Below the pieces are notes generated by a model that was not told the DNA's origin, did not search any database, and saw nothing but the letters and a program-made list of their open reading frames with translations. From the sequence record AP019521.1: a stretch of 64,000 nucleotides of DNA; one strand, written 5' to 3'. Within the stretch, counting starts at the first letter, position 1. Each line of letters begins with the position of its first letter. The position numbers and the translations under genes are program-made. This stretch comes from Escherichia phage KIT01. Positions 12,600 through 61,915 of the stretch are shown here, piece after piece.

Positions 12600-13688
12600 A
12601 TGAAAGTAAAAGAACTTGACTTTGATGTAGCCTCCTTGTTTAAAGGAGGTTCAAAGACCTCCGCAGGTCAATCTAAAACACAAGCAATAAAAACCACGGT
12701 AACCGCTCAGTACCCAGCTGAGCGTGCTTCAGGTAATGATACCTCAACCGATATGGTATTAAACGACCTCTATAAAAATGGATTGCTTTTTACTGCATAT
12801 AATTTTAGTTCTCGTGTATCTCCGGATTTGCGTAACGACCGTTCGAGTCAAATGACTAAAAAGTTCTCAAGTGCAGCCAGCAAATTAACAGGCAATAGTG
12901 GAACATATAGTGCTGTTAAAAACTTATTTGGTGGAAATACTAAGGGCGTTAAATTTGATACCCAAGCCTTAGCCAATATTCTTTTACCTCGTTCTAAATC
13001 TGATGTGGATTCCGTGTCACATAAATTTAACGATGTAGGCGAATCATTGATTACTAAAGGTGGTGGTACTGCTACAGGTATTTTGAGTAACGTTGCAAGT
13101 ACTGCGGTATTTGGTGCATTGGAATCTGTGACTAATGGTGTAATGGCTGATTCAGGTGAGCAGATATACACCACCGCTCGTAGTATGTACGCAGGGCCGG
13201 ATAACCGTACTAAGGTATTTACCTGGGAAATGACTCCACGAAACGCCCAAGACCTTATCCAGATTATTAAAATATATGAAATCTTTAATTACTATTCTTA
13301 TGGCGAAACAGGCAATTCAGCCTTCGCAGGTGAATTAAAAGATAAGATTGATACTTGGTACCGTTCTACATTTAAAAAAGAAGCTATTGACAAGTTTGAT
13401 GGTAAGCTATTAGGGGAAAGTATTACAAGCTTCCTTTCTAATGTTATTGTGGTAAGTAACCCGACCATTTGGTATATCCGAAACTTTGGCGATAGCAGTT
13501 CATATGATGGTCGTGAAGATATTTTTGGTCCATGCCAAATCCAGAGTATACGATTTGATAAAACCCCTGATGGCCATTTTAACGGATTAGCTATTGCTCC
13601 TAACTTACCATCTACATTTAGTTTAGAAGTTACTTTCCGTGAAATTATTACTCTTAACCGTGGCTCACTTTATACGGAAGGATTCTAA
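12600..13688 (+). CDS. 48: gp48 baseplate tail tube cap
   Basis: 362 aa; synteny and size match T4 gp48. Confidence 0.9.
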   Translation: MKVKELDFDVASLFKGGSKTSAGQSKTQAIKTTVTAQYPAERASGNDTSTDMVLNDLYKNGLLFTAYNFSSRVSPDLRNDRSSQMTKKFSSAASKLTGNSGTYSAVKNLFGGNTKGVKFDTQALANILLPRSKSDVDSVSHKFNDVGESLITKGGGTATGILSNVASTAVFGALESVTNGVMADSGEQIYTTARSMYAGPDNRTKVFTWEMTPRNAQDLIQIIKIYEIFNYYSYGETGNSAFAGELKDKIDTWYRSTFKKEAIDKFDGKLLGESITSFLSNVIVVSNPTIWYIRNFGDSSSYDGREDIFGPCQIQSIRFDKTPDGHFNGLAIAPNLPSTFSLEVTFREIITLNRGSLYTEGF

Positions 13689-14641
13689 TGTATACTTTAC
13701 AAGAATTTCAGAACCAGGCAATTAATATTGACCTACAGAGGAATAACCTGTTTAGTGTAGTATTTGCTACGGTTCCTTCTTCTAAATCCCAGGCGCTCCT
13801 CGACCAGTTCGGTGGAGCTTTATTTAACAATATCCCATTGAATACCGATTTGTTTGGTATTACACAAGGAGAGTTGACCCAAGGTGTTACGACATTAGTG
13901 ACAGCGGGCACTCAGAAGTTGATTCGTAAGTCAGGCATAAGTAAATATCTGATTGGAGCTATGTCATCCAGGGTTGTGCAGAGCTTACTAGGAGAGTTTG
14001 AAGTAGGTACATATCTGATGGATTTTTTCAATATGGCCTATCCTACGGCAGGTCTTTTAGTCCACGCCGTTAAAATCCCGGATAATACTTTGAACTATGA
14101 AATGGATTTGAACCACAACTCGCCTAACATCAAAATTACCGGAAGAGAATATTCTCCATTGGTATTAAGCTTCCGTATGGATTCTGAAGCTGCTAACTAC
14201 CGTGCTTTTAATGATTGGGTCAATAGTGTCCAAGACCCTATTACACAATTAAGAGCATTGCCTGAGGATGTTGAAGCCGACATTCAAGTCAACCTTCATT
14301 CTCGTAATGGATTACCCCATACAGTAGTAATGCTTAATGGTTGTGTTCCTGTTGGTGTTTCGTCACCAGAATTATCTTATGACGGTGATAACCAAATTGC
14401 TTCGTTTGATGTTACATTTGCTTATAGAAGTGTACAGACGGGTGCAGTTGGCAAACAAGCTGCTTATGAATGGTTGGAAGATAAAGTCCTTAAAGGCGTG
14501 GCAGGGATAAGTGAGAGCAATTCGCTGAGTTCTTCAGTAGCTAAATTAAGCCGACTTTCAGGAGCTTCTAGTGGATTAACAGGATTAGTTAATACATTTG
14601 GTGGGCGTGCTATTAATAATGGAATATCGAGGTTGTTATAA
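13688..14641 (+). CDS. 54: gp54 baseplate tail tube initiator
   Basis: 317 aa; synteny and size match T4 gp54. Confidence 0.9.
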   Translation: MYTLQEFQNQAINIDLQRNNLFSVVFATVPSSKSQALLDQFGGALFNNIPLNTDLFGITQGELTQGVTTLVTAGTQKLIRKSGISKYLIGAMSSRVVQSLLGEFEVGTYLMDFFNMAYPTAGLLVHAVKIPDNTLNYEMDLNHNSPNIKITGREYSPLVLSFRMDSEAANYRAFNDWVNSVQDPITQLRALPEDVEADIQVNLHSRNGLPHTVVMLNGCVPVGVSSPELSYDGDNQIASFDVTFAYRSVQTGAVGKQAAYEWLEDKVLKGVAGISESNSLSSSVAKLSRLSGASSGLTGLVNTFGGRAINNGISRLL

Positions 14642-14648
14642 CAAAAAA

Positions 14649-14670
14649 GGAGAGCATATGCTCTCCTTTA
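14649..14670. terminator. Bidirectional terminator between gene 54 and convergent minus-strand genes
   Basis: Perfect palindrome GGAGAGCATATGCTCTCC with A-run upstream and T-rich downstream. Confidence 0.6.
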
Positions 14671-14675
14671 GGGGT

Positions 14676-14966
14676 TTATTTACGGAACGAAATGAAACCT
14701 GCTGTGGTCATTAGTGGTTGCTTTTTAACAAAGACCGTGATAGAAATAGGAGCTTCAGATTCAAGCTGACCGGTTACTACACCATTAAAGATATTTTCAG
14801 TTTGTTCTGGATGAGAAAAATTCTCAACAGGTCGGATATCAAACTGTTTGTCTTCACCGAAAACTCGACGTAATTCATTACCTACTGCACTGTCAAACTC
14901 TTCGGAAGCAGGGATAACGTTTTCAACCACCAGTTCTTGACCATTAAAACGGAATGCAGATTTCAT
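14676..14966 (-). CDS. Hypothetical protein downstream of the alt cluster
   Basis: 96-aa ORF following the alt paralogs on the same strand. Confidence 0.5.
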   Translation of the reverse strand: MKSAFRFNGQELVVENVIPASEEFDSAVGNELRRVFGEDKQFDIRPVENFSHPEQTENIFNGVVTGQLESEAPISITVFVKKQPLMTTAGFISFRK

Positions 14967-32812: not shown

Positions 32813-32838
32813 TTTGTTTTTCTCCTCATTAGTTGGTA

Positions 32839-32875
32839 AGTCTATACTAACACATCATGAGGAGATGTAAACTAC
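32839..32875 (-). promoter_or_regulatory. T4-type early promoter
   Basis: Minus strand reads GTTTACA-N16-TAGTATAGAC with flanking inverted repeat TCTCCTCAT/ATGAGGAGA. Confidence 0.5.
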
Positions 32876-40274: not shown

Positions 40275-40293
40275 TTTATTCTCCTTAGTTGAC

Positions 40294-40329
40294 CAGGCTA
40301 TAGTATCACTACCATAGCCTGGTGTAAAC
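40294..40329 (-). promoter_or_regulatory. T4-type early promoter
   Basis: Minus strand reads GTTTACA-N17-TACTATAGCC with inverted repeat CCAGGCTAT/ATAGCCTGG. Confidence 0.55.
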
Positions 40330-43585: not shown

Positions 43586-44533
43586 TTAATAAAAATCAGC
43601 TACTGTAGCAGTTAGTTTAGACAAACCAGATTTAACGAAATAAGGATAGACTTTAGATTTCGAAGGTTTGTTATATGTATTATATCTTTCAGTAATTAAA
43701 GCAACAATATCATCTGGAATAAAGTCCATATCAATTAAGATTTGGTTTTCACAGAAACGTTCATATTGTTCTTCAGTAAGAAGTGTTTTAATTATATCAT
43801 GGTCATAATAATTAAGAGCAATCGCTTCAAGTTCCTTGGCACGAGTGCTAGGAGTACGTTCGCCTTCAACCATTGTCAACCAGTAATCACCACGAACTTT
43901 AATACTCGCAACGTTATCCTTGCGGTCACCTTTAATAACCTTAGTCACGCAATCAAGCAATGCATCGCCGGATTTTGTTTTGACGAATTTTTTCTGCATT
44001 GGGGACCATTGTTTTACCCCAGGGAATTTATGGAGTTGGGTAAAGTCACCATCAGAAGAACCAATCATAACGGGATGACCTAAAGCTGTAAGGATACGAG
44101 TCAATACAGCAATATGGTCATCAGCCTCGATTGTATCGATATTCATAACAATATAAGGCATATTATGTTCCAATTCATCGACAATAACATGCATTGCTGT
44201 AAATAGGCCTTCCCAATCAAATGGTGATTCGTCACGTGCCTTAGCACGGTTTTTCTTATAATAAGAAGAATAACGACGGCGCCAATATCCTGATTTGGAA
44301 TTATCGACACAAATAATTAATTGGTTGTAACCTTGTTTTTTAAAGTCTTTAATGTTTTTCTTAATTGAATTCAACACGAGGTGTCGAAGCATTGCTGTAG
44401 TTACTTTAGGAAATCCGGCATTCTCGCCAAACTCTTGGAAAGCCGCAGCCATAATGATTTGGCTGAAATCTAGGAGTAAAAACCCATCTTTTTGTTGGTC
44501 TTCTTCAGGAAGTAAAAAATCTAAATCGTTCAT
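43586..44533 (-). CDS. rnh: RNase H (5'-3' exonuclease / flap endonuclease)
   Basis: Match to T4 RNase H (LDFSQI..., CVDN.KSGYWRR, EADDHIAVL, SSDGDFTQLHK, KGD.KDNVAS.KVR). Likely start is ATG at 44533 just after a 10-bp hairpin; an in-frame upstream ATG lies at 44566. Confidence 0.9.
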   Translation of the reverse strand: MNDLDFLLPEEDQQKDGFLLLDFSQIIMAAAFQEFGENAGFPKVTTAMLRHLVLNSIKKNIKDFKKQGYNQLIICVDNSKSGYWRRRYSSYYKKNRAKARDESPFDWEGLFTAMHVIVDELEHNMPYIVMNIDTIEADDHIAVLTRILTALGHPVMIGSSDGDFTQLHKFPGVKQWSPMQKKFVKTKSGDALLDCVTKVIKGDRKDNVASIKVRGDYWLTMVEGERTPSTRAKELEAIALNYYDHDIIKTLLTEEQYERFCENQILIDMDFIPDDIVALITERYNTYNKPSKSKVYPYFVKSGLSKLTATVADFY

Positions 44534-44562
44534 ATGAACCTCTGTCCAATTAGTGTAGAGGT

Positions 44563-44594
44563 TCATTATATCATGACCCTAGAAGAAGTAAACA
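44563..44594 (-). promoter_or_regulatory. Early promoter for rnh
   Basis: Minus strand reads GTTTAC-N17-TATAAT. Confidence 0.5.
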
Positions 44595-44600
44595 CTTTGC

Positions 44601-44608
44601 TATAAATA
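44601..44608 (+). promoter_or_regulatory. Late promoter (TATAAATA) for gene 34
   Basis: Exact TATAAATA 32 nt upstream of the gene 34 ATG. Confidence 0.6.
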
Positions 44609-44640
44609 GTTCTATACCCTGAAAACGAAAAGGAAATAAA

Positions 44641-47600
44641 ATGGCCGATATTTTAAAACCTGCCTTCCGTGCTACATCCGGACTCGATGCTGCAGGCGAG
44701 AAAGTTATCAATGTTGCCAAAGCCGATTACAATGTATTAGACGACGGCGTCAACGTTGAATTCTTTATAGATGAGAACACCATCCAGGCGTACGACGAGA
44801 CGCGCGGATATAAGAAAGGGTTTGCCGTAATCCATGACCAACGTATCTGGGTTGCTCAACGTGATATCGATGCTCCGGCAGGAGCCTTTGTACCAGGTTA
44901 TTGGACTGCTACCCGTACTGACCCTAAATGGATTACTGTAGCGTCTCCTACACGCCAACTGGCTTCTGGTGAATATATTGCGGTGGATTCTGCTGCTAGC
45001 TTTACTACATTTACCCTGCCTCCTAACCCTACAGATGGCGATACCGTTGTAATTAAAGATATCGGTGGACGTGTTGGTTATAATGAAATAAAGGTCCAAT
45101 CTAGTTCTGCTCCTGGCGGCGGTAACCAGAAAATTGTTCGTTTTGGTAATCAGTTTACTGAGACCTTAATTACGAAGCCTTTTTCTTATAACATGCTTAT
45201 CTTTGCTAACCGTCTTTGGCATTTCTGGGAATCGGGTAACGAAGAACGTGGTATCCGTGTAGAACCTAACACCGCTCAGTTCCAAGCTCAAGCCGGTGAT
45301 AACATTCTCCGTCGTTATACTTCAGGTGCAGTAATTAAGTTTACTCTTCCTAAGTATGCGAACCAAGGCGATATTATTAAAACCGCTGATATCGATGGTT
45401 TAGGAAGTAAATTCCACTTAATCGTTGAAACATTCGATGCGTCATCTTCATTAGGTAAGCTAGGTCAGCATAGCATGGAATTCCGTACCTCCGGTGACGG
45501 ATTCTTTGTTTATAACTCTACCGAAAAATTATGGTATGTTTGGGACGGCGACCTTAAAACCCGTTTACGTGTAATTCGCGATGATGTTGAACTCTTGGCT
45601 AATGAAAGTATTATTGTTTTTGGTCCTAATAATACAACGCCACAGACGATTAATATCACATTACCTACAGGCGTAGCCCAAGGTGATGTCGTTAAGATTG
45701 CTCTGAACTATCTCCGTAAAGCTCAGACGGTAAATATTAAGGCTGCTGTAGGAGATAAAATAGCTTCTTCGGTTCAATTGCTCCAGTTCCCTAAACGTTC
45801 TGAATATCCGCCGGATACTGAATGGGTATTGAATGATGTATTGACCTTCAATGGTAACTTAAGTTATACTCCGGTTATTGAACTGAGTTATATCGAAGAC
45901 ATCACTACAGGTGGCAAATATTGGGTTGTTGCTCAAAACGTTCCTACTGTAGAACGTGTGGATTCTAAAGATGATTTAACCCGTGCTCGTCTTGGTGTTA
46001 TTGCTCTGGCGTCACAGACCCAAGCAAACGTCGACCATGAAAATAATCCTGAAAAAGAACTTGCAATTACTCCTCAGACTTTAGCTAATCGTGTAGCGAC
46101 TGAATCTCGTCGTGGTATTGCTCGTATTGCTACTACTGCTCAGGTGAACCAGGATACAACCTTCGCATTCCAGGACGATTTGATTATTTCTCCTAAGAAA
46201 TTAAACGAACGTACTGCAACCGAAACTCGTCGTGGTGTTGCTGAAATTGCTACGCAAGTTGAAACCAATGCTGGTATAGATGACACTACAATCATCACTC
46301 CTAAGAAGCTACAAGCGCGCCAGGGTTCGGAAAGTCTTTCAGGTATTGTAACATATACCTCTACTGTAGGAACCACTCCTGCGACTGCTAGGGACACCGT
46401 AGGTACTAACGTTTATAATAAGAACGTAGGCAATTTGGTTATTTCTCCTAAAGCTCTTGACCAGTATAAAGCTACCCAAGTTCAACAGGGTACGGTATAT
46501 CTTTCTAACCAATCTGAAGTTAACGCAGGCCAATCGGCAAGTGGATTTGCCAACAGTGCTGTTTCTCCTGAAACATTACATGCTCGTGTGGCTCTTGATA
46601 CTCGTACAGGGTTAATTGAAATTGCTACGCAAACAGAGACTGATACTGGAACAGATTATACTCGTGCGGTAACGCCTAAGACGTTAAATGATAGGAAAGC
46701 TACGGAAGGATTGACTGGTATTGCTAGAATTGCAACACAGGTAGAATTTGATGCAGGTGTATTAGATAATGTTATTTCAACTCCGTTGAAAATTAAAACA
46801 AGATTTAATGATACTGCTAGAACTTCTGTCTCAGCAGCCAGCGGTTTGGTTGAATCAGGAACCTTATGGAACCATTATACACTAGATATTAGAGAAGCAA
46901 ATGAGACACAACGTGGCACTGCTCGCCTGGCAACCCAGACCGAAGTCAACGTTGGTACTGATGACAAAACTATCATCACTCCTTTGAAATTACATTCTAA
47001 AAAATCTACTGAAAGTTCTGAAGGTATTATTCGTGTTGCAACGAATACCGAAACAACCGCAGGAACTTCTAAAGTTCTGGCTGTAAGCCCTTCTGGTTTA
47101 AAATATGTAGTACAGACCGAAACCACTTGGGAAGCTACTGCACTTCGTCGTGGATTTGTTAAATTAACTGAAGCTGCTTTAACTTACTCAGGAAATAAAG
47201 TTACTGGTTCTGGTGTTAAATTTAACTCAGGTACAGGCCTTTATGAGAATGACGATACTGTTCTGAATGCAGCTAACTACCCTAAAACAGGTTATGCTGT
47301 TTCATCTTACGAGATGAATAAAACTTTACAGAACTTTTTACCTATAAATGCTACGGCTGTGAACTCCGAGAAATTGGATGGCCTAGATTCACTCCAGTTC
47401 ATTCGTAGAGACGTCGACCAAACGGTTAATGGTTCTTTAACCCTGACCAAACAATTGAACCTGGCAGCACCTCTAGTGTCTTCTAGTACTGCTACATTTA
47501 CGGATGTTACGGCTACAAATTCTACCTTTGGTACAGTGAACGTTGTTAATGGAACCAATAAATGGAAAATAACAGCTCCATCTACCGGAACTACATTAAC

Positions 47601-48660
47601 CATTGGTGATACGACTACTAACGTATTGACTATGAACACCGCTACAGGTAATGTGGCTGCTCTGAATAACCTTAGTGCTGGAAATGATGTCCAGGCCAAA
47701 AATAACTTTGTCCTGAATGGAAGAACCATCGCAACCACCACCGGTGAAGCTTCTGGTGCTACATTGTCTTTAGGCGATAATTCTCAGAATTTGGTTCTTA
47801 AAACATTAGATGCAGGAAATATCGTAGCTAATGGTGGTGGTGCTTATAAAGTTCTGACCGAGAAAAACGCTGTAGAAATTGTAGACCGAAACTTTGTTAA
47901 CCAGGCCGGCGACACAATGACAGGTGTTCTCCGTGTTAATGCTCCGGTACGTGCATTTGGTACTAAGCCTACATTAGCATCCCAGGCTCCTACTGCAGAA
48001 ACAGTTGGCTTCTGGTCTGTTGATATCAATGACGAGGCTACTTATAGTAAGTTCCCTGGTTATTGGACAATGGTTACCAAGCGCCAGATTAATATTGATA
48101 CGGTCCAGACTAAACCTGCTGGGATGTCTTATAAAGATTGGAACAACTCTGGGTGGTTAACTGAAAGCGGTACAAATGGAAGAGATGAAAACAACGACCC
48201 TATAAAAGGCCCGGATAACCAACCGATTCAGGTTGTACCTATTCGTTATCGTAAACCGGATGGAACTTTAGGTGACCCAGTTAGTACACCAGAGGCTCCT
48301 ATACGTGGTACTTGGTTTGATTATTCTGTTCGTGATAAGGAAGTTAAATATCCTGGTACGTTAACTCAGTTTGGTAATACATTGGATTCATGTTATCAGG
48401 ATTGGGTGTGCTATCCTACAGGATTGAATGGTGGTACTATTCGTTATACACGTACCTGGCAGAAAAATAAAAACGCATGGACTACGTTCTCTATGGTCTA
48501 TACCGCAGATAACCCTCCTTCTGCTGAAGAGGTTGGTGCATTGCCTGCTGATAACGCTACAATGGGTAACATTACAATCCTTGATTGGTTACGTATTGGT
48601 AACGTTCGTATTATTCCTGACCCGGTCACTAAATCTGTTAAGTTTGAGTGGATTGAATAA
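44641..48660 (+). CDS. 34: gp34 long tail fibre proximal subunit
   Basis: 1339 aa; long collinear match to T4 gp34 (LQFPKRSEYPP, RRGIARIATTAQVNQ, C-terminal GNVRIIPDPV.K.VKFEWIE). Confidence 0.95.
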   Translation: MADILKPAFRATSGLDAAGEKVINVAKADYNVLDDGVNVEFFIDENTIQAYDETRGYKKGFAVIHDQRIWVAQRDIDAPAGAFVPGYWTATRTDPKWITVASPTRQLASGEYIAVDSAASFTTFTLPPNPTDGDTVVIKDIGGRVGYNEIKVQSSSAPGGGNQKIVRFGNQFTETLITKPFSYNMLIFANRLWHFWESGNEERGIRVEPNTAQFQAQAGDNILRRYTSGAVIKFTLPKYANQGDIIKTADIDGLGSKFHLIVETFDASSSLGKLGQHSMEFRTSGDGFFVYNSTEKLWYVWDGDLKTRLRVIRDDVELLANESIIVFGPNNTTPQTINITLPTGVAQGDVVKIALNYLRKAQTVNIKAAVGDKIASSVQLLQFPKRSEYPPDTEWVLNDVLTFNGNLSYTPVIELSYIEDITTGGKYWVVAQNVPTVERVDSKDDLTRARLGVIALASQTQANVDHENNPEKELAITPQTLANRVATESRRGIARIATTAQVNQDTTFAFQDDLIISPKKLNERTATETRRGVAEIATQVETNAGIDDTTIITPKKLQARQGSESLSGIVTYTSTVGTTPATARDTVGTNVYNKNVGNLVISPKALDQYKATQVQQGTVYLSNQSEVNAGQSASGFANSAVSPETLHARVALDTRTGLIEIATQTETDTGTDYTRAVTPKTLNDRKATEGLTGIARIATQVEFDAGVLDNVISTPLKIKTRFNDTARTSVSAASGLVESGTLWNHYTLDIREANETQRGTARLATQTEVNVGTDDKTIITPLKLHSKKSTESSEGIIRVATNTETTAGTSKVLAVSPSGLKYVVQTETTWEATALRRGFVKLTEAALTYSGNKVTGSGVKFNSGTGLYENDDTVLNAANYPKTGYAVSSYEMNKTLQNFLPINATAVNSEKLDGLDSLQFIRRDVDQTVNGSLTLTKQLNLAAPLVSSSTATFTDVTATNSTFGTVNVVNGTNKWKITAPSTGTTLTIGDTTTNVLTMNTATGNVAALNNLSAGNDVQAKNNFVLNGRTIATTTGEASGATLSLGDNSQNLVLKTLDAGNIVANGGGAYKVLTEKNAVEIVDRNFVNQAGDTMTGVLRVNAPVRAFGTKPTLASQAPTAETVGFWSVDINDEATYSKFPGYWTMVTKRQINIDTVQTKPAGMSYKDWNNSGWLTESGTNGRDENNDPIKGPDNQPIQVVPIRYRKPDGTLGDPVSTPEAPIRGTWFDYSVRDKEVKYPGTLTQFGNTLDSCYQDWVCYPTGLNGGTIRYTRTWQKNKNAWTTFSMVYTADNPPSAEEVGALPADNATMGNITILDWLRIGNVRIIPDPVTKSVKFEWIE

Positions 48661-55668: not shown

Positions 55669-55703
55669 AAGGCTATACTAACATATCCTTACGGATTGTA
55701 AAC
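55669..55703 (-). promoter_or_regulatory. Early promoter for asiA
   Basis: Minus strand reads GTTTACA-N16-TAGTATAGCC. Confidence 0.55.
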
Positions 55704-61628: not shown

Positions 61629-61854
61629 AAGCAACGGAATGTTTTGGATGCTGTTTAGCCCAACCTACTAAAAATTCCCAATACTTTTCGATAGAACCGT
61701 AAAGATTAATTACCGTAGGAGTGGTAACTTCAGTCCAATCTTTTTGAACATTACCTGTTTTAATATTGGTAAGCTTGTGAAACACTTTACCGTTCTCAAA
61801 TTTATATTCTTCGATTTTACGATTGATTGCTTTAACAGAAGTAATAGAAGTCAT
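61627..61854 (-). CDS. Hypothetical early protein
   Basis: ORF from ATG at 61854 (MTSITSVKAINRK...). Confidence 0.5.
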   Translation of the reverse strand: MTSITSVKAINRKIEEYKFENGKVFHKLTNIKTGNVQKDWTEVTTPTVINLYGSIEKYWEFLVGWAKQHPKHSVA

Positions 61855-61878
61855 AATATTTTCCTCTCGTGTAGTTGA

Positions 61879-61915
61879 TAGGAAGATAGTAACACCATCC
61901 ATGGCGTATGTAAAC
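61879..61915 (-). promoter_or_regulatory. T4-type early promoter
   Basis: Minus strand reads GTTTACA-N17-TTACTATCTTCC. Confidence 0.5.

What the first reader, a model, noticed from the sequence alone, without database searches (positions are those of the whole stretch)
44531..44566. Perfect 10-bp hairpin spanning two candidate rnh start codons
On the mRNA strand, ATGAACCTCT-(13 nt)-AGAGGTTCAT is followed directly by ATGAACGAT. The upstream in-frame ATG is the first three bases of the 5' arm and the conserved N-terminus (MNDLDFL...) begins right after the 3' arm. The structure could sequester the upstream start or modulate initiation at the downstream one.
Basis: seen in the sequence. Interest (0 to 1): 0.4.

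Follow-up and report, generated by a model that had tools for sequence, protein, structure and literature searches.

The report
Chance hairpin over rnh promoter and RBS
The perfect 10-bp inverted repeat upstream of this T4-like phage's RNase H gene is real, but it is made of an early promoter, a short leader and the ribosome-binding site lying next to each other, so the main mRNA probably starts inside it and cannot form the hairpin, and the "upstream start codon" is not a start codon; the finding is ordinary.

Summary
The sequence is exactly as described: minus strand, 5' arm 44566-44557, 13-nt loop, 3' arm 44543-44534, then the rnh ATG at 44533-44531. The window is a Dhakavirus (JS98-like T4-type phage).

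The interpretation largely fails:
- **Upstream ATG.** Its A and T are the last two bases of a TG-extended -10 (TATAAT) of a GTTTAC-N17-TATAAT early promoter. This promoter is the positional homolog of T4 Pe148.6.
- **Transcript start.** By T4 homology, transcription starts at about C44558, so the main rnh mRNA keeps only 2 nt of the 5' arm and lacks the upstream ATG.
- **3' arm.** It is the Shine-Dalgarno GAGG plus spacer, and it is invariant across genera.
- **5' arm.** It varies even within the genus. JS98 has ATA in place of the ATG, and QL01, Bp7 and NC-G hit an in-frame TGA. There are no compensatory changes.
- **Origin of the complementarity.** The CCTC core and the loop's ACTAA match a consensus shared by the window's 13 minus-strand early promoters, so CCT/AGG complementarity is built in.

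A look-alike hairpin before alc (32821-32865) does covary in five lineages, which shows what a selected hairpin looks like. The rnh stem could at most silence rare read-through RNA. Interest is low.

The parts
44588..44593 (-). -35 element GTTTAC of the rnh early promoter (T4-type early promoter).
   Evidence: The same GTTTAC is found in T4 upstream of rnh.
44565..44573 (-). TG-extended -10 element, TGA-TATAAT (TATAAT = 44570..44565), 17 bp after GTTTAC.
   Evidence: 10 of 12 consensus matches, TG present. TGnTAnnAT is invariant in 9 phages from 6 genera and sits at a fixed 10 nt from ACTAA.
44564..44566 (-). The 'upstream ATG'. Its A and T are the last two bases of the -10 hexamer. It is not a start codon.
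   Evidence: It is ATA in the JS98 group and is followed by an in-frame TGA in QL01, Bp7 and NC-G.
44557..44566 (-). 5' arm ATGAACCTCT, made of the end of the -10, the discriminator (GAACCT) and the first transcribed bases.
   Evidence: It varies within the genus. Its ACCT core matches the shared promoter consensus AGACCTAT.
44558..44558 (-). Inferred transcription start (C, 7 nt after TATAAT), giving a 25-nt leader.
   Evidence: Inference by homology. The T4 Pe148.6 transcription unit is given as starting at map unit 150,727 (PMC6024815), which is the C 7 nt after TATAAT on the T4 sequence.
44544..44556 (-). Loop ACACTAATTGGAC, which is most of the rnh 5' leader and contains the recurrent ACTAA leader motif.
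   Evidence: ACTAAYTGRAC is nearly invariant across genera. AACTA occurs after the -10 in 5 of 13 early promoters of the window, against a 3.5% background; the rnh leader itself has CACTAA, the shorter ACTA(A) version.
44534..44543 (-). 3' arm AGAGGTTCAT, made of the Shine-Dalgarno GAGG (44542..44539) plus the 5-nt spacer TTCAT.
   Evidence: It is invariant in the nine variants used for the pair count and is largely unpaired in promoter-proximal RNA.
43586..44533 (-). rnh (RNase H / 5'-3' exonuclease) coding sequence, 315 aa, starting at ATG 44533..44531.
   Evidence: T4 RNase H 1TFR matches at E = 1.6e-114, with T4 residue 2 aligned to residue 14 of the long ORF. Annotations in relatives agree.
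44601..44608 (+). T4-type late promoter TATAAATA for the divergent gene 34, back to back with the rnh -35 element.
   Evidence: It is invariant in alignment A1. The gene 34 ORF is 44641-48660.

Best explanation
The inverted repeat is a by-product of three ordinary, tightly packed expression signals of rnh, not a regulatory hairpin of the rnh mRNA. The 5' arm is the end of the -10 hexamer plus the discriminator and start region of a sigma-70 (T4 'early') promoter. The loop is the short 5' leader. The 3' arm is the Shine-Dalgarno GAGG and its spacer. Host RNA polymerase starts at about C44558, 7 nt after TATAAT, so the mRNA begins CUACACUAAUUGGACAGAGGUUCAU-AUG. That RNA lacks 8 of the 10 nucleotides of the 5' arm and the upstream AUG, and its ribosome-binding site is largely open. 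RNase H is made only from the downstream AUG (315 aa). The complementarity arises easily because early promoters of this phage share the motif ACCT(A/C)T just after the -10, which is the complement of the AGG of a Shine-Dalgarno. In one Dhakavirus subclade, chance substitutions extended this to 10 perfect pairs. Shown here: the sequence, the promoter consensus and its conservation, the lack of conservation of the 5' arm, and the modelled accessibilities. Inferred: the start site (by homology with T4 Pe148.6) and promoter activity in this phage.
For: Promoter: GTTTAC-N17-(TG)TATAAT, ending 2 nt inside the 5' arm.
T4 homolog: T4 has the same layout, GTTTAC...TATAAT-AGAAATCTC-ACTAATTGAAC-GAGGTTCAT-ATG. 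Its promoter Pe148.6 is active 1 min after infection and in vitro with host polymerase, and its unit starts at map unit 150,727, which is 7 nt after the -10 (PMC6024815).
Conservation: TGnTAnnAT, the leader, the SD and the ATG are conserved across six genera, while the 5' arm is not.
Within Dhakavirus there are five versions of the 5' arm. Three of them break 1-3 pairs. The stem energy is -13.8 kcal/mol in the window group, -6.9 in VR5 and -4.4 in JS98.
Pair count: 0 compensatory changes, the 3' side is invariant, and 7 of 10 pairs vary on the 5' side only.
Other genera and T4 fold this segment at only -3 to -7 kcal/mol.
Accessibility: SD unpaired probability is about 0.5 for three of its four bases (0.05 for the last G), and the A and U of the AUG are above 0.9 (its G 0.13), in RNA starting at 44558-44556. 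The SD is 0.00 in any RNA that includes the 5' arm.
Shared consensus: the window's 13 minus-strand early promoters share AGACCTATCAACTAA after the -10, and rnh (GAACCTCTACACTAA) fits it.
Positive control: the alc hairpin of the same architecture keeps pairing through changes on both sides in five lineages, at -18 to -24 kcal/mol.
N-terminus: the solved T4 RNase H matches the downstream ATG.
Against: The start site is inferred by homology and was not measured in this phage. The stem is stable and perfect in 8 of the 17 distinct Dhakavirus genomes sampled, and QL01 and Bp7 keep it through a G.U wobble. Only 5% of shuffled upstream sequences bury the SD this completely. In 140-nt models of read-through RNA, the JS98 and VR5 types still bury the SD using a second pyrimidine run in the promoter spacer. 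Two other early promoters in the window show the same closed/open switch. A minus-strand promoter, the ori(34) homolog, lies 2.3 kb upstream and points at rnh.
Confidence: 0.7

Rival explanations
1. The hairpin is a functional insulator of the T4 e/soc/49/I-TevI type. Any transcript entering from upstream on the minus strand (antisense to gene 34, for example from the ori(34)-like middle promoter at about 46900) contains both arms, and its rnh ribosome-binding site is locked. Only RNA made from the promoter embedded in the 5' arm is translated, which ties RNase H synthesis to the early promoter.
For: The SD is fully paired in all modelled read-through RNAs and open in promoter-proximal RNA. 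The geometry is the same as the documented T4 cases, where promoters just upstream of the RBS give transcripts lacking the 5' strand of the helix (PMC3014915). The alc hairpin in this window has this design with an early promoter and covaries. An ori(34) homolog points at rnh. Only 5% of shuffles reach the same degree of occlusion.
Against: There are no compensatory changes, and the 5' arm is broken in the JS98, VR5 and NC-G types and absent in T4 and five other genera. No same-strand gene lies upstream. The nearest GTTTAC-type promoter upstream on that strand is 11 kb away, at 55703. Untranslated antisense RNA would be expected to be terminated by Rho before reaching rnh (general knowledge, not tested). 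The CCT/AGG complementarity is generic to this promoter class.
Confidence: 0.2
2. One reading: rnh has two alternative start codons in one mRNA, and the hairpin hides the upstream one or tunes the downstream one.
For: In the window the upstream ATG is in frame with no stop. One database record (IME08) annotates a CDS that runs through it.
Against: The ATG overlaps the -10 hexamer and lies upstream of the inferred start. It has no proper SD. It is ATA in the JS98 group and is followed by an in-frame TGA in QL01, Bp7 and NC-G. All other annotations and the solved T4 protein use the downstream start. The IME08 CDS actually begins at ATA, 3 nt before the ATG, which looks like an annotation artefact.
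Confidence: 0.03
3. The stem-loop acts on transcription or on DNA. It could be a PeSL-type attenuator/terminator of transcription arriving from upstream, or a protein-binding or cruciform palindrome in the divergent rnh/34 promoter region.
For: PeSL cassettes of T4-type phages combine an early promoter, a stem-loop between -35 and -10 or overlapping the -10, and the SD and ATG of the next gene. Their stem-loops terminate transcription in reporter tests (PMC2839356).
Against: No T-run follows the stem on either strand, and the terminator scan finds nothing here. The palindrome is not conserved as a palindrome. The site is in a core region with a divergent gene upstream, not after a same-strand gene in a hyperplastic region.
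Confidence: 0.05

Closest known systems
[quoted passage not shown]
   Same: Same position, directly upstream of rnh and back to back with the gene 34 late promoter. Same elements in the same order: GTTTAC, TATAAT, a short leader containing ACTAATTG(A/G)AC, GAGGTTCAT, ATG. In T4 the promoter is experimentally active early and in vitro (PMC6024815).
   Different: The 9-10 nt between the -10 and ACTAA differ: T4 has AGAAATCTC and the window has GAACCTCTAC. In T4 this gives only a weak, bulged pairing with the SD (-5 kcal/mol), against a perfect 10-bp stem here.
RBS-sequestering hairpins with an internal promoter (T4 genes e, soc, 49, I-TevI; also I-TevII/III, mobE, segB)
   Same: The SD lies in the 3' strand of a helix. 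A promoter is placed so that its own transcripts lack the 5' strand (PMC3014915). Models reproduce the closed/open switch.
   Different: In the known cases where the review specifies it (e, I-TevI), the internal promoter is late and same-strand upstream genes supply abundant long transcripts. The review predicts similar gene e leader structures in closely related T4-type phages. Here the promoter is early, no same-strand gene lies upstream, and the stem is neither conserved nor covarying.
PeSL (promoter-early stem-loop) cassettes of T4-type phages
   Same: A composite of a sigma-70-like early promoter (TTTACW-N17-TAYWAT in the T4/PST group), a stem-loop overlapping the promoter, and the SD and ATG of the downstream gene (PMC2839356, PMC4122927). 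The window's early promoters share an extended consensus, as repeated cassettes would.
   Different: PeSL stem-loops are usually between -35 and -10, follow the stop codon of an upstream gene, lie mostly in hyperplastic regions, and act as terminators. Here the stem spans from the -10 to the SD, has no T-run, and lies in the conserved core next to a divergent late gene.
The rnlA-alc intergenic hairpin of the same window (32821-32865)
   Same: Identical design: the 5' arm lies inside a GTTTAC-type early promoter, the 3' arm holds the SD, and the SD unpaired probability goes from 0.00 in read-through RNA to 0.72 in promoter-proximal RNA.
   Different: It has an upstream same-strand gene (rnlA). 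It is kept through changes on both sides in Dhakavirus, Karamvirus, a Klebsiella phage and T4. The rnh stem has neither property.

Membership tests
T4-type early (sigma-70) promoter; homolog of T4 Pe148.6 | -35 GTTTAC(A/T), a 16-18 bp spacer and a -10 TAnnnT, often with an upstream TG. | tested here: met
   GTTTAC (44593-44588), a 17-bp spacer, TGA-TATAAT (44573-44565). The motif is strand-biased, 13 on the minus strand against 3 on the plus strand in the window.
T4-type early (sigma-70) promoter; homolog of T4 Pe148.6 | Homologous position and flanking sequence relative to T4 Pe148.6. | tested here: met
   The window, T4 and relatives from five other genera align.
T4-type early (sigma-70) promoter; homolog of T4 Pe148.6 | Transcription by unmodified host RNA polymerase immediately after infection, with a mapped 5' end. 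| not testable with these tools
   Shown only for T4 (PMC6024815). The start at 44558 is an inference.
RBS-sequestering hairpin with internal promoter (T4 e/soc/49/I-TevI type) | The SD and/or AUG lie inside a stable helix in the long transcript. | tested here: met
   SD unpaired probability is 0.00 in modelled RNAs containing the 5' arm. The stem is -13.8 kcal/mol.
RBS-sequestering hairpin with internal promoter (T4 e/soc/49/I-TevI type) | The promoter is placed so that its transcripts lack the 5' strand of the helix. | tested here: met
   The -10 ends 2 nt inside the 5' arm. The inferred start leaves 2 of the arm's 10 nt in the RNA. The position is met; promoter activity is inferred.
RBS-sequestering hairpin with internal promoter (T4 e/soc/49/I-TevI type) | Longer transcripts initiated upstream actually run into the gene. 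| not testable with these tools
   No same-strand gene lies upstream. The only nearby minus-strand promoter is the ori(34) homolog at about 46900. Strand-specific RNA data are needed.
RBS-sequestering hairpin with internal promoter (T4 e/soc/49/I-TevI type) | The helix is maintained in related phages, by conservation or compensatory change. | tested here: not met
   0 compensatory changes. The stem is broken in the JS98, VR5 and NC-G types and absent in T4 and five other genera. The alc hairpin meets this test.
PeSL (promoter-early stem-loop) cassette | A sigma-70-like early promoter with the SD and ATG of the downstream gene at its 3' end. | tested here: met
   The definition is from PMC2839356.
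PeSL (promoter-early stem-loop) cassette | A stem-loop between -35 and -10 or overlapping the -10 that acts as a terminator/attenuator. | tested here: inconclusive
   The stem overlaps only the last 2 nt of the -10 and extends to the SD. There is no T-run and no terminator-like call. Terminator function was not testable.
PeSL (promoter-early stem-loop) cassette | Located after the stop codon of an upstream same-strand gene, preferentially in hyperplastic regions. | tested here: not met
   The upstream neighbour is the divergent late gene 34, in a conserved core region.
Dual-start / N-terminally extended RNase H | The upstream start codon is conserved, in frame, preceded by an SD and present in the mRNA. 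| tested here: not met
   It is in frame only in some genomes, ATA in the JS98 group, and followed by TGA in QL01, Bp7 and NC-G. It overlaps the -10. The T4 protein starts at the downstream Met.

The most novel reading that the evidence does not exclude
In this Dhakavirus subclade the rnh stem is a recently evolved member of a wider class, of which the covarying alc hairpin is the established example. In this class an early promoter is embedded in the 5' strand of a helix that locks the downstream ribosome-binding site. The gene is then translated only from its own promoter's transcripts and is insulated from RNA arriving from upstream. For rnh that upstream RNA would be the ori(34) primer transcript or antisense-late RNA, which would link RNase H supply to origin transcription.
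Probability: 0.15. Interest if true: 0.4.

Novelty: already known. Interest (0 to 1): 0.15.

Why it matters
It matters little in itself. The working parts are the known early promoter, leader, Shine-Dalgarno and start codon of rnh, homologous to T4 Pe148.6, and the perfect stem is a lineage-specific coincidence made likely by the shared promoter consensus. There are three practical points:
- rnh should be annotated from the downstream ATG (315 aa). The IME08-style extension is an artefact.
- Inverted repeats that join a promoter to an SD in T4-type phages need a conservation test before being called regulatory.
- The same screen turned up a hairpin before alc that passes that test. Its embedded promoter is early, whereas the review specifies a late promoter for e and I-TevI, and alc is not in that review's list. 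It would be the better target for experiments.

Tried and rejected
- **Rfam** over 44300-44800 at E <= 1 gave only sub-threshold hits: Vault at 21.8 bits against a gathering score of 34, and the rimP leader at 20.1 against 47. These are chance.
- **Intrinsic terminator.** No T-run and no terminator-like call at the stem.
- **RegA operator.** The leader has UAAUUG about 18 nt before the AUG, but RegA sites overlap or abut the AUG and are A/U-rich (consensus aaAAUUGUUAUGUAA; PMC3014915). The sequence next to the AUG here, GGUUCAUAUG, does not resemble it, so I rejected this as unsupported.
- **An rnh-specific conserved RNA element in the loop.** The ACTAA-type motif recurs downstream of the -10 in several of the window's other early promoters, so that part of the conservation is not specific to rnh.
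- **IMG/VR pattern scans** gave 41 loci. About half were unrelated chance matches and were discarded. One of them (L035) slipped into the conservation profile and slightly lowers all values there.
- **Conservation profile.** The leader figure of 0.89 is partly inflated because loci were selected with a leader pattern. I rely on the blastn-derived alignment instead.
- **Occlusion in JS98/VR5 read-through models** depends on long-range pairing in a 140-nt window and on close relatives. I treat it as weak evidence.
- **Literature.** The T4 genome review (PMC150520) is not held. The replication review does not give the direction of oriG, but the T4 GenBank record does.

Full report
**What is there.** The window is a Dhakavirus, a JS98-like member of the Tevenvirinae. 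The rnh-gene 34 segment is 94-97% identical to JS98, WG01, IME08 and similar phages. The minus strand reads ATGAACCTCT (44566-44557), a 13-nt loop ACACTAATTGGAC (44556-44544), AGAGGTTCAT (44543-44534), then ATGAACGAT. The arms are perfectly complementary. The upstream ATG is in frame, 33 nt ahead of the downstream one.

**Is it more than chance?** The stem alone folds at -13.8 kcal/mol. A 61-nt context gives -14.8 kcal/mol and z = -2.65. Perfect 10-bp inverted repeats with a 3-30 nt loop occur at 9 distinct places in the window, against 2.8 +/- 2.1 in dinucleotide shuffles. One such repeat is therefore not remarkable, and what matters is its position.

**Anatomy.**
- The 3' arm holds the Shine-Dalgarno GAGG (44542-44539), 5 nt before the ATG at 44533.
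- The 5' arm overlaps a promoter: GTTTAC (44593-44588), a 17-bp spacer, then TGA-TATAAT (44573-44565).
- The A and T of the "upstream ATG" are the last two bases of the -10 hexamer.
- GTTTAC-N16-18-TAnnnT occurs 13 times on the minus strand and 3 times on the plus strand of the window, as expected for T4-type early promoters on the early strand.
- The late promoter TATAAATA of the divergent gene 34 (44601-44608, plus strand) sits back to back with the -35 element.

**Homology with T4.** T4 has the same arrangement: GTTTAC, TATAAT, AGAAATCTC, ACTAATTGAAC, GAGGTTCAT, ATG(rnh). The T4 promoter upstream of rnh is Pe148.6. Primer extension shows it active 1 min after infection and in vitro with host polymerase. 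Its transcription unit is given as starting at map unit 150,727 (PMC6024815). On the T4 sequence that is the C 7 nt after TATAAT, which gives a 23-nt leader. The equivalent base in the window is C44558, giving a 25-nt leader. RNA from this promoter would contain only the last two bases of the 5' arm and not the upstream AUG. This start site is inferred and was not measured for this phage.

**Folding models.** In any RNA that includes the 5' arm, the Shine-Dalgarno is paired with probability 1.00. In RNA starting at 44558-44556, three of its four bases are about 50% unpaired (the last G 0.05). The A and U of the AUG are more than 90% unpaired and its G is mostly paired (0.13).

**Comparative test.** I aligned nine phages from six genera: Dhakavirus, Gaprivervirus, Winklervirus, Kagamiyamavirus and two Kanagawavirus lineages, with T4 compared separately.
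- The extended -10 (TGnTAnnAT), the leader ACTAAYTGRAC, the SD, the spacer and the ATG are invariant or nearly so. The segment corresponding to the 5' arm is not.
- Within Dhakavirus there are five versions of the 5' arm:
  - ATGAACCTCT, perfect: the window, UGJNEcP3, IME08, WG01, LHE83, PSD9, fDHCT2 and one IMG/VR genome.
  - ATGGACCTCT, one G.U wobble: QL01 and Bp7.
  - ATGGACATCT: NC-G.
  - ATGAACTCCT: VR5, -6.9 kcal/mol.
  - ATAACCTTCT: JS98, JS10, IME281, CLB_P2 and dhabil, -4.4 kcal/mol.
- The 3' arm never changes.
- A pair-by-pair count finds no compensatory change. Seven of the ten pairs vary on the 5' side only, and four of those depart only by losing the pair.
- In T4 and the other genera this segment folds at only -3 to -7 kcal/mol.

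**The upstream ATG.** It is ATA in the JS98 group. In QL01, Bp7 and NC-G its frame reads ATG GAC CTC TCA ACT ACT TGA, so it stops before the rnh ATG. No good Shine-Dalgarno precedes it. All but one of the annotated relatives examined start rnh at the downstream ATG. The exception, IME08, has a CDS that begins at ATA, 3 nt before the ATG, which looks like an annotation artefact. The solved T4 RNase H (1TFR, 305 aa) aligns from its residue 2 to residue 14 of the long ORF, so T4 Met1 corresponds to Met12, give or take one residue. The two-start idea is not supported.

**Why the complementarity exists.** Aligned at the -10, the window's 13 minus-strand GTTTAC promoters share an extended consensus: TAnnAT-AGACCTATCAACTAA...GAGG...ATG. 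The rnh sequence GAACCTCTACACTAA fits it at ACCT, T and ACTAA. AACTA lies within 30 nt after the -10 in 5 of 13 promoters, against 3.5% of background windows (P = 5e-5). The rnh leader has CACTAA and so counts only under the shorter ACTA, found in 6 of 13 against a 10% background (P = 1e-3). The CCTC core of the 5' arm is therefore a generic promoter/discriminator motif. The ACTAA core of the conserved loop is a motif that recurs in these leaders. The 3' arm is the SD. CCT/AGG complementarity is built into this class of promoter, and a few substitutions extend it. This repeated promoter-leader-SD cassette resembles the PeSL elements described for T4-type phages, which combine an early promoter, a stem-loop overlapping the promoter, and the SD and ATG (PMC2839356, PMC4122927).

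**A positive control in the same window.** I screened the GTTTAC promoters for a switch between "SD closed in read-through RNA" and "SD open in promoter-proximal RNA". Three of the 12 minus-strand promoter/gene pairs that could be scored show it: 61915, rnh and 32872.
- The 32872 case lies between rnlA (gene 63) and alc. It reads GTTTAC-A-TCTCCTCAT-...-TAGTAT-...-ATGAGGAGA-AAAACAAA-ATG.
- This stem is maintained with different sequences on both sides: TCTCCGTTT/AAACGGAGA in Karamvirus CkP1, CCTCATCAG/CTGATGAGG in a Klebsiella phage, and AAGTCC(C)TCGTGT/ACATGAGGACTT in T4. The energies are -18 to -24 kcal/mol. It is absent in a Mosigvirus, and no such stem is apparent in VR25.
- A selected hairpin of this design therefore does covary in this phage group, and the rnh stem does not.

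**The remaining rival.** The stem could silence rnh translation on RNA entering from upstream, in the manner of T4 e, soc, 49 and I-TevI (PMC3014915).
- Points for it: the physical occlusion, the 5% shuffle frequency, and a homolog of T4 ori(34)/oriG inside gene 34. This homolog is on the minus strand at about 46902-46874 (TTTGCTTCT-N13-TATAAT, then an A+T-rich stretch) and points towards rnh. The T4 record places oriG at 152,947 with its primer RNA opposite to gene 34.
- Points against it: the lack of conservation, no same-strand gene upstream, and the next GTTTAC-type promoter upstream being 11 kb away.
- I give this rival about 0.2.

**Verdict.** The upstream start and regulation of the main mRNA are not supported. 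The elements are known ones, namely the Pe148.6 homolog, the leader and the SD of rnh, and the perfect stem is most likely incidental. Interest is low.

Noticed in passing
window 32821-32872 (minus strand), rnlA-alc intergenic region: This is a hairpin with a GTTTAC-type early promoter embedded in its 5' strand and the alc Shine-Dalgarno in its 3' strand (TCTCCTCAT / ATGAGGAGA). The SD unpaired probability is 0.00 in read-through RNA and 0.72 in promoter-proximal RNA. Pairing is kept through changes on both sides in Dhakavirus, Karamvirus CkP1, a Klebsiella phage and T4 (-18 to -24 kcal/mol). It is absent in Mosigvirus a20, and no such stem is apparent in VR25. alc is not in the 2010 review's list of T4 inhibitory RBS structures. 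It deserves its own follow-up.
   Followed up: partly
window about 46785-46902 (minus strand), inside gene 34: This is a homolog of the T4 replication origin oriG/ori(34). It has a MotA-box-like TTTGCTTCT, 13 nt, TATAAT, then conserved sequence and an A+T-rich stretch, and it points towards rnh. The T4 record annotates oriG at 152,947 with its primer RNA opposite to gene 34.
   Followed up: partly
window, the 13 minus-strand sites listed (61915, 60470, 58085, 57497, 55703, 44593, 41329, 40618, 40329, 32872, 31580, 29142, 15024): The GTTTAC-type early promoters share an extended consensus downstream of the -10: AGACCTATCAACTAA, followed closely by GAGG and ATG. They look like repeated promoter-leader-SD cassettes resembling PeSLs. 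AACTA is enriched there (5 of 13 against a 3.5% background).
   Followed up: partly
window 61854-61915 (minus strand): An early promoter has CTTCCT directly after its -10, complementary to the SD region GAGAGGAAA of a 75-aa ORF with no PHROG match. The modelled SD unpaired probability is 0.09 in read-through RNA and 0.53 in proximal RNA. This has the same layout as rnh. Its conservation was not checked.
   Followed up: no
window 40292-40329 (minus strand): A 14-bp inverted repeat (ACCAGGCTATGGTA / TACTATAGCCTGGT) lies inside an early promoter, running from the spacer across the -10 and the start region. It is followed by TCAACTAAGGAG and ATG. It does not cover the SD, and its architecture is PeSL-like.
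   Followed up: no
window 14646-14669: A perfect 24-nt palindrome, AAAGGAGAGCAT|ATGCTCTCCTTT, lies between two convergent ORFs (13688-14641 plus strand, 14676-14966 minus strand). A T-run follows it on the minus strand. It is most likely an intrinsic terminator, despite containing an SD-like GGAG and an ATG.
   Followed up: no
window 44484-44554: The rnh leader plus about the first 16 codons is an island of nucleotide conservation. Distant Klebsiella phages match only this stretch of a 301-nt query. Third codon positions of LDFLLPEE are nearly invariant across genera, although T4 differs there. The cause is unknown, possibly constraints on the translation initiation region.
   Followed up: partly
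L060 (IME08, HM071924.1) 165-170, equivalent to window 44564-44569: The IME08 record annotates rnh as 984 nt, starting at ATA 3 nt before the upstream ATG. All other records examined use the downstream ATG (948 nt). This is probably an annotation error.
   Followed up: yes
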